Positions 27,713 through 28,603 of a stretch of DNA of 64,000 nucleotides are shown piece by piece. The notes under the pieces were generated by a model. That model did no database searches. It saw nothing but the letters and a program-made list of their open reading frames with translations, and had not been told where the DNA came from. This stretch comes from the human T2T-CHM13v2.0 reference genome, Homo sapiens. How positions within the stretch are numbered: the stretch's first letter is position 1; each line of letters begins with the position of its first letter. The position numbers were made by a program, and so were the translations under genes. Location of the stretch: the NCBI RefSeq assembly GCF_009914755.1, contig NC_060943.1. One strand, 5' to 3'.

Positions 27713-27982
27713 CGATGATCCCCCAGAATCCACTGAAGAAAGCCAAATCTAGTCCAAATCCCTCTTTTTGCGAATGTGAAAACTGGGGTCCCGAGAGGGG
27801 AGATGACCTCGAGAAGTCACCTGGCCAGTTATTAGTACAGACAGGGCAGAACCCAGTTGTCCTCATTCTGGTACCACTCTAGGGATGCACTAAAATTCCA
27901 CTTTGGCTTTAGTACTAGCCAAAACCTGCTATTTGGCATGGGCATCATCTGTTAGAAGGCAGAGGAATAAATCCTCAATTTA
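27713..27982 (+). repeat. Left arm of 270-bp inverted repeat (contains decayed MIR-like sequence)
   Basis: Reverse complement of 28334-28603 with 2 mismatches. Confidence 0.97.
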
Positions 27983-28095
27983 AAATAATTAAAAGAGTAT
28001 AATTGGATTGTCTGCAACACAAAAGTATCTATCCCTTAAATATATATAACTGCTATGTACCCACTAAAATTAAAAATACAATTTTTTAAAAAAAA
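27979..28095 (+). mobile_element. L1MA-like 3' terminal fragment (sense)
   Basis: TTTAAAATAATTAAAAGAGTATAATTGGATTGTCTGCAACACAAAAG ... TATGTACCCACTAAAATTAAAAAT resembles the L1MA 3' end (recalled consensus). Confidence 0.65.
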
Positions 28096-28333
28096 TATTG
28101 CTTCTTACTCTAGCAGTAGAAAATATACATTTACTTATCTGTATTTTTTAACTTTAAATTGCACCTTGAATGTTTACCTCTAGTTTGAAAACAAATATGC
28201 AAATATTAACAGTAAATGCAAAGGAAATATCTTGTTTGTGTCAGTGTGGGTTTTGTGCTGTTTAGATAAGATGGGACCCTATGTGAATACTGATCATCAA
28301 TCATACCTGAGAAAGTGATGGCAGAAAAGATGC

Positions 28334-28603
28334 TAAATTGAGGATTTATTCCTCTGCCTTCTAACAGATGATGCCCATGCCAAATAGCAGGTTTTGGCTA
28401 GTACTAAAGCCAAAGTGGAATTTTAGTGCATCCCTAGAGTGGTACCAGAATGAGGACAACTGGGTTCTGCCCTGTCTGTACTAATAACTGGCCAGGTGAC
28501 TTCTCGAGGTCATCTCCCCTCTCGGGACCCCGGTTTTCACATTTGCAAAAAGAGGGATTTGGACTAGATTTGGCTTTCTTCAGTGGATTCTGGGGGATCA
28601 TCG
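28334..28603 (-). repeat. Right arm of 270-bp inverted repeat
   Basis: Reverse complement of 27713-27982, 268/270 identical. Confidence 0.97.

What the first reader, a model, noticed from the sequence alone, without database searches (positions are those of the whole stretch)
27713..28603. Near-perfect 270-bp non-Alu inverted repeat: a fully paired long dsRNA hairpin in SPTBN4 intron 2
Seen: 27713-27982 is the reverse complement of 28334-28603 at 268/270 positions, with a 351-bp loop. The two differences (27772 G : 28544 T and 27784 T : 28532 G) are both CpG-to-TpG changes and both become G-U wobbles in the sense transcript, so the SPTBN4 pre-mRNA can form an unbroken 270-bp helix (two wobbles could also arise by chance). 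The arm includes decayed MIR-like sequence; independent MIR copies would be far more diverged, so this is a recent local duplication or is homogenised by arm-to-arm conversion. Inference: a much better duplex than inverted Alus, in a neuronal transcript. It is a candidate ADAR hyper-editing site, hairpin endo-siRNA source, dsRNA-sensor ligand, and substrate for recurrent flipping of the loop.
Basis: partly seen in the sequence, partly recalled or inferred. Interest (0 to 1): 0.82.

Follow-up and report, generated by a model that had tools for sequence, protein, structure and literature searches.

The report
Inversion scar makes intronic RNA hairpin
In an intron of the nerve-cell gene SPTBN4, a 270-base stretch of unique DNA lies beside an almost exact back-to-front copy of itself, apparently the scar of a small local inversion; its RNA should fold into a long double helix, but nothing yet shows that this helix does anything.

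Summary
Arms 27713-27982 and 28334-28603 are complementary at 268 of 270 positions with a 351-nt spacer. Both differences are C-to-T changes at CpG on the + strand, so they pair as G-U in sense RNA.

It is not a transposon. The arm has no other copy in the genome.

The new result is that an old L1-like 3' fragment is split cleanly in two. One half (27978-~28095, sense) starts 5 nt inside the left arm. The adjoining half (28749-~28869) lies beyond the right arm and an old 5'-truncated Alu piece, in the opposite orientation. So the spacer has been inverted, and the arms are an inverted duplication made at the inversion breakpoints by break repair or template switching. There are short homologies at the junctions: ATTTA/TAAAT, TCG, and a 12-nt tandem.

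Timing is open. Either the event is young (about 1-30 Myr from 2 differences), or it is as old as the Alu piece and the arms are kept alike by conversion.

The sense pre-mRNA folds into an unbroken helix (-608 kcal/mol) and is a plausible nuclear ADAR substrate. The siRNA and cytoplasmic-sensor roles are unlikely and untested.

Verdict: a new member of a known kind, of moderate interest.

The parts
27324..27610 (+). Alu1: full-length Alu-like element in the left flank. It is followed by an A-rich tail and a (CA)n tract to about 27680, then 32 nt of unique flank (27681-27712).
   Evidence: Rfam SRP-type hits 27326-27442 and 27460-27607 on +; direct-repeat family D1; masked stretch 27319-27690.
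27713..27982 (+). Left arm of the inverted repeat. It is unique sequence; its last 5 nt, ATTTA (27978-27982), are also the first 5 nt of the L1-like sense half.
   Evidence: 268/270; no other copy in the genome; L1-like homology begins at about 27976-27978.
27978..28095 (+). L1-like 3'-end fragment, sense half, ending in an A-run (28088-28095). It lacks about 80 nt that other copies carry between 28023 and 28027.
   Evidence: The label 'L1' is my recollection of the family; the tools give no family names.
27983..28333 (.). Spacer (loop), 351 nt, 72% A+T. It consists of the L1-like sense half plus 236 nt of unique sequence (28098-28333).
   Evidence: (all non-self matches fall in spacer positions 1-124).
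28334..28603 (-). Right arm, the reverse complement of the left arm.
28599..28622 (+). 12-nt tandem CATCGCAAAGCT / CTTCGCAAAGCT (11 of 12; exact 10-mer at 28601-28610 and 28613-28622). It straddles the right arm's outer end.
   Evidence: It is the only local repeat of at least 7 nt at any of the four junctions apart from the CA tract. 748 of 63,800 window positions (1.2%) are straddled by a comparable non-simple repeat.
28604..28748 (+). Alu2: old 5'-truncated Alu fragment, corresponding to Alu1 from about 27491 onward, with a degenerate A-rich tail (about 28727-28748). It sits between the right arm and the antisense L1-like half.
   Evidence: (D2, D3). In one search the best non-self genome matches are 83% over 129 nt and 88% over 86 nt, among 40 scored of 2391 candidates.
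28749..28869 (-). L1-like fragment, antisense half. In other copies this stretch lies directly upstream of the stretch homologous to 27978-28023, in the same orientation.
27772..27784 (+). The two arm differences (27772:28544 and 27784:28532), both at CpG.

Best explanation
The repeat is the scar of a small DNA rearrangement. It is not a mobile element, and nothing here shows it to be a selected RNA gene.

Ancestral layout (inferred). The locus read: left flank, unique segment A (now the left arm), then the present spacer in the opposite orientation. The spacer ended in an intact antisense L1-like 3' fragment that ran straight on into 28749-28869.

The event (inferred). A break or stalled fork at the point that now splits the L1-like fragment was repaired by copying. 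A 3' end ending in the 5-nt homology (ATTTA/TAAAT) primed on the opposite strand or folded back. About 265 nt of segment A were copied in reverse. The new strand was then rejoined to the old Alu fragment through a short TCG homology. The product is: A, inverted spacer, reverse copy of A. This pattern is expected from a template switch (four-point order 3-1-2-4), from a staggered-break inversion, or from fold-back priming followed by one flip of the spacer.

Timing. I take the event as most likely to post-date the Alu fragment and to be about 1-30 Myr old, with no later function.

Consequence (inferred, not tested). Every SPTBN4 pre-mRNA carries a 270-bp uninterrupted duplex with 144 adenosines in intron 2. 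In neuronal nuclei it is probably edited heavily by ADAR enzymes and degraded with the intron.

Shown: the repeat, its uniqueness, the split and inverted L1-like fragment, the junction repeats, and the fold. Inferred: the order of events, the mechanism, the date, and the editing.
For: Uniqueness: the arm matches only the two arms (2 of 2 candidates). The ends of identity are sharp.

Split marker: 14 loci holding related L1-like copies were compared. In 8 of them (L004, L005, L006, L008, L012, L034, L035, L038) the stretch homologous to 27976/27978-28023 and the stretch homologous to 28749-28840/68 abut within about 5 nt, in one copy and one orientation. In the window the same two stretches are 770 nt apart and in opposite orientation. 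L011 shows the same if its weaker hit is counted. L009 and L036 carry both halves in that same arrangement, with a gap or with the first piece undetected. L007, L010 and L037 hold only one half. No locus shows the window's arrangement. Alignments A1 and A2 place the break between ...GTAC and ATTTA..., with no L1-like bases lost or gained within about 2 nt. Both halves are about 80-88% identical to the same copies.

Junctions: the 5 nt ATTTA are shared by the arm end and the L1-like half. The 12-nt tandem straddles the right outer junction (background 1.2% per position). This tandem carries the rare Alu2 variant. The exact 14-mer TCGCAAAGCTGAGG occurs 16 times in the genome. The common form occurs 57 times within 1 mismatch, 5 of them exact, in this window alone. 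So the tandem arose after Alu2 had diverged.

Precedents read in passages: template switches of order 3-2-1-4 and 1-4-3-2 create single inverted repeats in great-ape genomes (PMC7954356). Inversions with inverted duplications of non-repetitive sequence occur at 17 of 29 Drosophila inversions, with a median duplication of 321 bp, often at one breakpoint only (PMC1885836). All 59 human-chimpanzee microinversions are flanked by inverted repeats (PMC8755829).

RNA: unbroken helix, MFE -608 kcal/mol, z -53.
Against: No outgroup or second human genome could be consulted. The ancestral order, the polarity (which arm is the copy) and the date are therefore inferred from one sequence.

If the event is young and Alu2 was already sitting in the L1-like fragment, the switch point must coincide within about 5 nt with Alu2's old insertion point. 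My rough estimate of that chance is 1-2%. The rival 'old event' removes this coincidence.

No target-site duplications could be found to fix the old junctions. In the TSD comparisons, 1224-1998 of 2000 shuffles scored at least as well, 2699 of 5000 did.

The 12-nt tandem could be a later slippage unrelated to the junction. With four junctions examined, its background is about 5%.

The date rests on 2 differences and on recalled mutation rates (point estimate 7.8 Myr, 95% interval 0.9-28 Myr). It is void if the arms convert each other.

Nothing here tests transcription, editing or any effect of the duplex.
Confidence: 0.6

Rival explanations
1. There was one old event, coupled to the Alu insertion, and the arms have evolved in concert since.

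The antisense L1-like fragment was nicked or broken at the T-run/A-run site next to the break. An Alu cDNA was primed on the right-hand end. The left-hand 3' end (TAAAT) folded back on ATTTA 351 nt upstream and copied segment A. It then joined the Alu cDNA through TCG homology, which produced a 5'-truncated Alu without target-site duplication.

The repeat would then be as old as the Alu fragment, tens of Myr. Its 99.3% identity would be kept by arm-to-arm gene conversion or template switching. The same processes would have flipped the spacer an odd number of times. The 12-nt tandem would be a later slippage.
For: All four junction features are explained without any coincidence. The L1-like break coincides exactly with the end of Alu2's tail (28748/28749). 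The arm's inner end equals the 5-nt homology at the break. Alu2 is 5'-truncated exactly at the arm's outer end and has no detectable target-site duplication. TTT/AAAA lies at 27979-27985, 4 nt from the break; by recollection this is the kind of site L1 endonuclease prefers. Alu2 is clearly old: it has no genome match above 88%. Abstracts seen in a search listing only state that template switching between repeat arms both homogenises the arms and inverts the spacer (PMC8604942) and can expand the arms (PMC13100816). By my recollection, non-allelic conversion rates of about 1e-6 to 1e-5 per site per generation would suffice to hold two copies within 1%.
Against: It requires a 270-bp repeat to have been homogenised without any erosion of its edges for tens of Myr. 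I know of no example that short. Without conversion, I would expect roughly 20% divergence between arms of that age (a rough estimate from Alu2's divergence), against the 0.74% observed. The bases just before 28749 do not match what a primed insertion at that site would leave; about 2 of 4 would have to have mutated. A+T-rich sequence makes the endonuclease-like motif weak evidence.
Confidence: 0.3
2. The arms are the terminal inverted repeats of a DNA transposon or MITE.
For: The geometry fits: two inverted arms around an internal segment.
Against: The arm has no other copy in the genome. No target-site duplication flanks it (junction listing). The interior is a piece of an L1-like element plus unique sequence. 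One outer end abuts a truncated Alu, with a junction repeat of the kind seen at repair junctions.
Confidence: 0.01
3. Assembly artefact or a private variant of the CHM13 haplotype, for example a fold-back read artefact.
For: Only one assembly could be read here.
Against: By recollection, a fold-back artefact has no spacer and identical arms. Here there is a 351-nt spacer and two CpG differences, one in each arm. That implies two copies evolving separately for roughly a million years or more (lower bound 0.9 Myr). The junctions show ordinary repair signatures.
Confidence: 0.03
4. The repeat is a selected RNA element, whose duplex in the SPTBN4 intron is preserved because it regulates splicing, recruits ADAR or yields small RNAs.
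For: Both differences keep pairing in the sense RNA as G-U, while they are mismatches in the antisense RNA. It lies in a neuronal gene. The dsRNAscan preprint reports neuronal enrichment of predicted dsRNAs (title and abstract seen in the listing).
Against: Two changes give about a 1 in 4 chance of this pattern. No Rfam family matches inside the repeat. The structure is explained fully as a rearrangement scar. Long, near-perfect duplexes are reported to be selected against even in pre-mRNA (PMC7006430, passages). By recollection, human somatic Dicer handles long duplexes poorly.
Confidence: 0.05

Closest known systems
Template-switch mutations that create inverted repeats (the four-point model of Loytynoja and Goldman; Walker et al. 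2021, PMC7954356, passages read)
   Same: A nearby unique segment is copied in reverse complement, the edges are sharp, and a perfect inverted repeat and hairpin-forming potential are created in one step. Related abstracts, seen only in the listing, report homogenisation of arms and inversion of spacers (PMC8604942) and the birth of RNA hairpins and microRNAs by this route (PMC8794818, PMC10710096).
   Different: The copied tract here is about 270-626 nt, at or beyond the 'tens to hundreds of nucleotides' range described. The event also inverted a 351-nt spacer and ended inside an Alu fragment. No ancestral sequence is available to run the model.
Inversions flanked by inverted duplications from staggered breaks (Ranz et al. 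2007, PMC1885836, passages read)
   Same: Non-repetitive sequence from one breakpoint is duplicated in inverted orientation at the two ends of the inverted segment. The duplication size is close to their median of 321 bp. In 12 of their cases only one breakpoint was duplicated.
   Different: Those are Drosophila chromosomal inversions of kilobases to megabases. Here the inverted segment is only 351 nt, and a retroelement fragment sits at one junction.
Human-chimpanzee microinversions flanked by inverted repeats (PMC8755829, passages read)
   Same: A short segment is inverted between inverted repeats whose inner edges coincide with the inversion boundaries. The proposed mechanisms are template switching or microhomology-mediated break-induced replication.
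   Different: Those inversions are 17-33 nt with flanking repeats of 3-75 nt. This one is ten-fold larger, and its repeats were probably made by the event rather than pre-existing.
Long, highly paired intramolecular dsRNAs of human pre-mRNAs (dsRNAscan preprint PMC11838218, section 10 read; Barak et al. 2020, PMC7006430, passages read)
   Same: It is an intronic, near-perfect duplex. These duplexes are rare, often weakly expressed, and some are heavily edited. An example is a KLHDC1 intron structure with about 14 inosines per transcript.
   Different: At 270 bp it falls below the 300-bp cut-off of both catalogues. Most catalogued cases form between inverted LINE copies and 88% are intergenic. 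This one is unique sequence inside a gene. Whether it appears in their tables could not be checked, because supplements are closed.
Inverted Alu pairs, the usual ADAR substrates
   Same: Intronic position and similar geometry. An ordinary pair at 40791-41093 / 41437-41739 in the same gene has 303-nt arms and a 343-nt spacer.
   Different: That pair is 81% complementary and this one is 99%. The arms here are not Alu: the Rfam SRP-type hits lie only in the flanks.
Large sex-chromosome palindromes kept alike by arm-to-arm gene conversion (recalled; no paper read here)
   Same: Near-identical inverted arms around a spacer, and the possibility of concerted evolution and spacer inversion.
   Different: Those arms are kilobases to megabases long and carry genes. 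Conversion has not been shown for this 270-bp repeat.
L1 twin priming and endonuclease-independent retroelement insertion (Sen et al. 2007, PMC1920257, abstract start seen in the listing; otherwise recalled)
   Same: A retroelement is split into two oppositely oriented parts with contiguous coordinates. A 5'-truncated Alu without target-site duplication lies at a break.
   Different: In twin priming the inverted part lies directly upstream of the sense part, within one insertion. Here it lies 650 nt downstream of the A-tail, with unique DNA, a duplicated arm and an Alu piece in between.

Membership tests
Inverted duplication from break repair or template switching | The arms are copies of local, otherwise unique sequence. 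| tested here: met
   Genome search with the arm returns only the two arms.
Inverted duplication from break repair or template switching | Identity ends abruptly at both ends of the arms, with no decaying homology. | tested here: met
   3 of 15 and 4 of 15 matches just outside the arms.
Inverted duplication from break repair or template switching | Short homology or templated bases at the new junctions. | tested here: met
   5-nt ATTTA/TAAAT shared by the arm end and the L1-like half. TCG plus a 12-nt tandem at 28599-28622 (background 1.2% per position). No such feature at 27712/13 or 28333/34.
Inverted duplication from break repair or template switching | The single-copy ancestral state is seen in an outgroup. 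| not testable with these tools
   No primate or other human assemblies are on hand.
Inversion | A marker sequence is split into two parts with contiguous coordinates but opposite orientation. | tested here: met
   In 8 of 14 related loci the two homologous stretches abut in one orientation. None shows the window's arrangement (alignments).
DNA transposon or MITE with terminal inverted repeats | Multiple related copies in the genome. | tested here: not met
   no other copy.
DNA transposon or MITE with terminal inverted repeats | A target-site duplication flanks the arms. | tested here: not met
   The outer flanks ...CCCAAAAT and CAAAGCTC... share no direct repeat.
L1 twin-priming insertion | The inverted 5' part lies immediately upstream of the sense 3' part, within one insertion bounded by target-site duplications. 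| tested here: not met
   The antisense half lies downstream of the A-tail, separated by 236 nt of unique DNA, the right arm and Alu2. No target-site duplication was found.
Inverted Alu pair | Both arms are Alu elements. | tested here: not met
   SRP-type and Alu-type matches lie only at 27326-27607, 28642-28703 and 29290-29400.
   nhmmer with 27681-27982 against the masked window plus 227,616 nt of other loci gave 3 hits, E 0.043, 0.074 and 0.61, covering 27747-27923. No repeat library is available. By eye and from memory the core does look MIR-like.
Long, highly paired dsRNA (candidate MDA5 ligand as defined in PMC11838218 and PMC7006430) | More than 96% paired. | tested here: met
   269 of 270 arm positions are paired in register in the MFE fold; only the innermost pair is left open.
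Long, highly paired dsRNA (candidate MDA5 ligand as defined in PMC11838218 and PMC7006430) | Longer than 300 bp and present in a cytoplasmic (exonic) transcript. | tested here: not met
   270 bp. Both arms are intronic in all five RefSeq transcripts listed.
ADAR hyper-editing substrate | Clustered A-to-G changes in RNA. | not testable with these tools
   No reads are available. Searches for SPTBN4 with 'A-to-I' and 'intron' found 0 papers.
microRNA or hairpin small-RNA locus | A match to a known RNA family, or small RNAs from both arms. | tested here: not met
   No Rfam match inside 27713-28603 at E up to 1. Small-RNA data are not available.
Palindrome under arm-to-arm conversion | The arms are more alike within a species than orthologous arms are between species. 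| not testable with these tools
   It needs orthologous loci.

The most novel reading that the evidence does not exclude
The repeat is as old as the Alu fragment beside it, tens of millions of years. It was born when a retrotransposition intermediate at a nick in the L1-like fragment was resolved by the broken target end folding back and copying 265 nt of its own flank. This would be a kind of twin priming on target DNA. Since then it has behaved as a miniature palindrome. Arm-to-arm conversion has kept 270-bp arms 99% alike and has flipped the 351-nt spacer, possibly with pairing of the sense RNA tolerated or favoured.
Probability: 0.25. Interest if true: 0.6.

Novelty: new member of a known kind. 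Interest (0 to 1): 0.4.

Why it matters
Three points give this locus some value.

1. It is a clean, self-documenting example. It shows how a single repair or replication accident can place a perfect 270-bp RNA duplex of non-repeat sequence into a neuronal pre-mRNA. The split L1-like fragment serves as a built-in record that the spacer was inverted.

2. It offers a natural test case. An ordinary 81%-paired inverted Alu pair of nearly the same geometry lies in the same gene as an internal control. Together they can test how nuclear ADAR enzymes and intron turnover deal with a perfect duplex, and whether short inverted repeats with a spacer of a few hundred bases flip and convert in the human germline.

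3. If the old-event reading is right, it would show concerted evolution of a very short palindrome. It would also show a retrotransposition-coupled route to inverted duplications.

There is no sign that the repeat affects SPTBN4 function.

Tried and rejected
Target-site duplications. I looked for them around the L1-like fragment in the present and in the inferred ancestral orientation, around Alu2, and around Alu1. No comparison beat shuffles. In one search, 1520, 1998, 1776 and 1224 of 2000 shuffles scored at least as well. In one search, 2699 of 5000 did. So they give no help with polarity.

Weak direct repeats between the spacer and 28950-29039 (families D4 and D5). A local alignment of 28098-28333 against 28746-29290 scored 24, and 32 of 300 shuffles reached that. 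I treat these as chance.

A recent DNA source for Alu2, which would have reconciled an old-looking Alu with a young event. None was found. The best non-self matches were 83% over 129 nt and 88% over 86 nt, among 40 scored of 2391 candidates. Only the best candidates are scored, and closed regions are not shown.

MIR content and continuity of any old repeat across the left outer junction, which would have shown which arm is original. blastn and nhmmer gave only marginal hits, none reaching 27713. Several 18-nt hits look to me like chance similarity to Alu.

Rfam. It returned only Alu/SRP-type and sub-threshold microRNA-family hits in the flanking Alus.

RefSeq functional elements and masked repeats. 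None of 100 nt or more lies between 27691 and 28712. window.fa carries no soft-masking.

Literature. 'SPTBN4' with 'inverted repeat' found 0 papers. 'SPTBN4' with 'A-to-I' and 'intron' found 0. 'SPTBN4' with 'dsRNA' found 1 unrelated review. I therefore found no description of this repeat in the searched library. The supplementary tables of PMC11838218 and PMC7006430, which may list it, are closed.

Twin priming, a transposon origin and an assembly artefact were considered and rejected for the reasons given under rival explanations.

Not attempted: no consensus of Alu, L1 or MIR was built or typed.
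Full report
The repeat finder reports arms 27713-27982 and 28334-28603, 270 nt, 99% complementary, with 351 nt between them. A script finds exactly two differences, 27772 G: 28544 T and 27784 T: 28532 G. At each site one arm keeps a CpG and the other has TpG on the + strand, so both are C-to-T changes on the sense strand, one in each arm. 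Folded as sense RNA, the 891 nt form one uninterrupted helix. It has 269 in-register pairs including 2 G-U, with MFE -608.3 kcal/mol against -220 +/- 7 for shuffles, z = -53. The antisense strand has two unpaired positions instead. Complementarity stops dead at all four ends. Of the 25 longest of the 83 inverted pairs of at least 150 nt within 5 kb in this window, the other 24 are 71-88% complementary; the one I inspected, 40791-41739, is Alu-like, as I take the rest to be. The repeat lies in intron 2 of NM_020971.3 on the sense strand. It is 10.3 kb from the donor and 3.7 kb from the acceptor.

WHAT THE PIECES ARE. The arm is unique: a whole-genome search returns only the two arms (2 of 2 candidates). 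Spacer positions 1-124 match a high-copy family (47 matches among 40 scored of 179 candidates). Alignment with other copies shows this to be the 3' end of a LINE-1-like element on the + strand. It ends in an A-run at 28088-28095 and has an internal gap of about 80 nt. The name L1 is my recollection; the tools give no family names. The homology begins at about 27976-27978, so its first five bases, ATTTA, are the last five bases of the left arm. The rest of the spacer (28098-28333) is unique. On the left lie a full-length Alu (27324-27610), its tail, a CA tract and 32 unique bases. On the right, directly after the arm, lies the 3' part of another Alu (28604-28748), which I call Alu2. It corresponds to the left Alu from about 27491 onward. 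Rfam finds nothing inside the repeat. RefSeq lists no functional element there.

THE KEY RESULT. The 120 nt that follow Alu2's tail (28749-~28869) also belong to a high-copy family (1780 candidates). I compared the window with 14 loci holding related copies. In 8 of them (L004, L005, L006, L008, L012, L034, L035, L038), the stretch homologous to 28749-28840/68 lies directly upstream of the stretch homologous to 27976/8-28023. The two abut within about 5 nt and have the same orientation. In the window they are 770 nt apart and oppositely oriented.
- L011 agrees if its weaker hit is counted.
- L009 and L036 have both halves in that same arrangement, with a gap or a missing piece.
- L007, L010 and L037 hold only one half.
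- No locus looks like the window.
Alignments A1 and A2 put the break between ...GTAC and ATTTA..., with nothing lost or gained within about 2 nt. One old L1-like fragment has therefore been cut in two, and one half has been turned round. The half that was turned is the one inside the spacer, because the exons on both sides fix the frame. The spacer has thus been inverted relative to its ancestral orientation, and the arms sit exactly at the limits of the inverted piece.

JUNCTIONS. The inner end of the arms coincides with the L1-like break through the 5-nt homology ATTTA/TAAAT. At the right outer end there is a 12-nt tandem, CATCGCAAAGCT / CTTCGCAAAGCT (28599-28622; exact 10-mer twice). Its first unit is half arm and half flank. 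Only 1.2% of window positions are straddled by a comparable repeat (748 of 63,800). With four junctions examined, that gives a background of about 5%. The tandem carries a rare variant of the Alu sequence. The exact 14-mer occurs 16 times in the genome. The common form occurs 57 times within one mismatch in this window alone. So the tandem arose after Alu2 had already diverged. The other two junctions show nothing. No target-site duplications could be recognised for the L1-like fragment or for Alu2.

RECONSTRUCTION (INFERENCE). Name the blocks as follows: F is the left flank, A the arm, m the 5-nt homology, L3 the sense L1-like half, U the unique part of the spacer, and L5 the antisense half. 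The present order is F, A, m, L3, U, m', A', Alu2, L5. The simplest ancestor with an intact L1-like fragment is F, A, m, then U and L3 in reverse orientation, then L5. Three known routes give the present order.
- A template switch. The growing strand leaves A at ATTTA and pairs with TAAAT 351 nt ahead on the other strand. It copies back through the spacer and A, then returns further on. This is order 3-1-2-4 in the four-point scheme. Related orders are the commonest source of new inverted repeats in great apes (PMC7954356, passages).
- An inversion with a staggered break around A. Filling in the stagger duplicates A in inverted orientation at the far end. This was inferred for 17 of 29 Drosophila inversions, with a median duplication of 321 bp (PMC1885836, passages).
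- Fold-back priming of a broken end on ATTTA, followed by one flip of the spacer.
All 59 human-chimpanzee microinversions are likewise bounded by inverted repeats, though at a ten-fold smaller scale (PMC8755829, passages). I cannot tell these routes apart from one sequence.

AGE: THE UNRESOLVED POINT. Two differences in 270 nt, with recalled human mutation rates, give 7.8 Myr with a 95% interval of 0.9-28 Myr, if the arms never exchange. Alu2 looks far older. Among more than 2000 candidate relatives, none scored above 83% over 129 nt or 88% over 86 nt, and no recent source copy exists. There are two readings.
- Young event. The event struck a locus where Alu2 already sat inside the L1-like fragment. 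The switch point then has to coincide within about 5 nt with Alu2's old insertion point, which I rate as a 1-2% coincidence.
- Old event. Alu2 arrived in the same event, primed at the T-run/A-run site 4 nt from the break, with the other broken end folding back. No coincidence is then needed. But the repeat must be tens of Myr old, and its arms must have been kept alike by conversion or template switching between them. According to abstracts I saw only in a search listing, these processes also invert spacers (PMC8604942, PMC13100816).
I give the young reading about 0.5 and the old reading about 0.3. The general statement that this is an inversion with an inverted duplication, made by repair or replication, I put at about 0.85.

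RNA LEVEL (INFERENCE ONLY). The sense pre-mRNA carries a 270-bp duplex with 144 adenosines.
- ADAR editing. From recalled knowledge, long perfect duplexes are edited promiscuously by ADAR1 and ADAR2, which are nuclear and abundant in brain, so heavy editing is likely wherever the intron is made.
- Cytoplasmic sensors. The two catalogues I read use more than 300 bp and more than 96% pairing to define possible MDA5 ligands. They find such structures rare (2,018 of 5.13 million predictions), mostly between inverted LINEs and mostly intergenic. Only one lies in a 3' UTR (PMC11838218, section 10). Long, near-perfect duplexes are reported as depleted even from pre-mRNA, and some of the few that are expressed are heavily edited (PMC7006430, passages). 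This repeat is shorter than that cut-off and wholly intronic. A role as a cytoplasmic sensor ligand would therefore need intron retention or failed lariat turnover (compare the abstract of PMC13189227, listing only).
- Small RNAs and circles. Endo-siRNA production in human neurons is unlikely, by recollection of Dicer's properties. No exon lies in the loop, so circular RNA is not expected.
- Selection. The two G-U wobbles are compatible with selection for pairing but equally with chance (about 1 in 4).

DNA LEVEL. According to an abstract seen in a listing, distance and divergence between repeat arms lower their ability to cause rearrangements (PMC10164571). With a 351-nt spacer, I expect this repeat to be fairly stable. 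The inverted spacer shows that exchange or switching across the arms has happened at least once.

STANDING. Every component is a known kind: a template-switch or staggered-break inverted duplication, a microinversion, and a near-perfect intronic duplex. The locus itself does not appear in the searched literature. The supplementary tables that might list it were closed. I rate it a new member of a known kind, with interest 0.4. It is a tidy, datable case and a useful natural substrate for editing and repeat-stability studies. It is not a new class of element.

LIMITS. I had one haplotype, no outgroups, no reads and no repeat library. The family names (L1, MIR), the endonuclease preference, the mutation and conversion rates, and the properties of ADAR and Dicer are recalled, not computed.

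Noticed in passing
window 48017-48388: A 31-nt G-rich minisatellite of about 12 copies (71% matches). It lies in the SPTBN4 intron between exons 47424-47582 and 48479-48781 and is a possible length polymorphism.
   Followed up: no
window 39132-39392: A compound CTAT/TATC tetranucleotide array of about 260 nt with higher-order 57-71-nt units, in the intron just upstream of exon 39542-39622.
   Followed up: no
window 60554-60733: An AT-rich compound array: (AT)n with 10- and 20-nt units containing CG. It lies about 450 nt after exon 59962-60099.
   Followed up: no
window 40791-41093 and 41437-41739: An ordinary inverted Alu pair with almost the same geometry as the finding (303-nt arms, 343-nt spacer) but only 81% complementary. 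It is a ready internal control for editing studies.
   Followed up: no
window 14657-15887: A head-to-tail run of about four Alu-like units with period 308, 77% matches.
   Followed up: no
window 28023-28027: The L1-like fragment in the spacer lacks about 80 nt that 8 other copies carry at this point, so it has an internal deletion.
   Followed up: partly
window 27700-27712 and 27717-27729: A weak direct similarity (9 of 13, by eye) across the left outer junction. I did not test it statistically and take it to be chance. If real, it could be a decayed target-site duplication and would favour the right arm as the original.
   Followed up: partly
window 27611-27680: An A-rich Alu tail grading into a (CA)n tract. 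It ends 32 nt before the left arm, which is where the copied tract stops. A possible polymerase obstacle, but this is speculative.
   Followed up: no
genome G000, 16 sites listed: The rare 14-mer of Alu2 occurs exactly 16 times in the genome, four of them on chromosome 16 at 32-35 Mb. Those four are presumably copies within segmental duplications.
   Followed up: no
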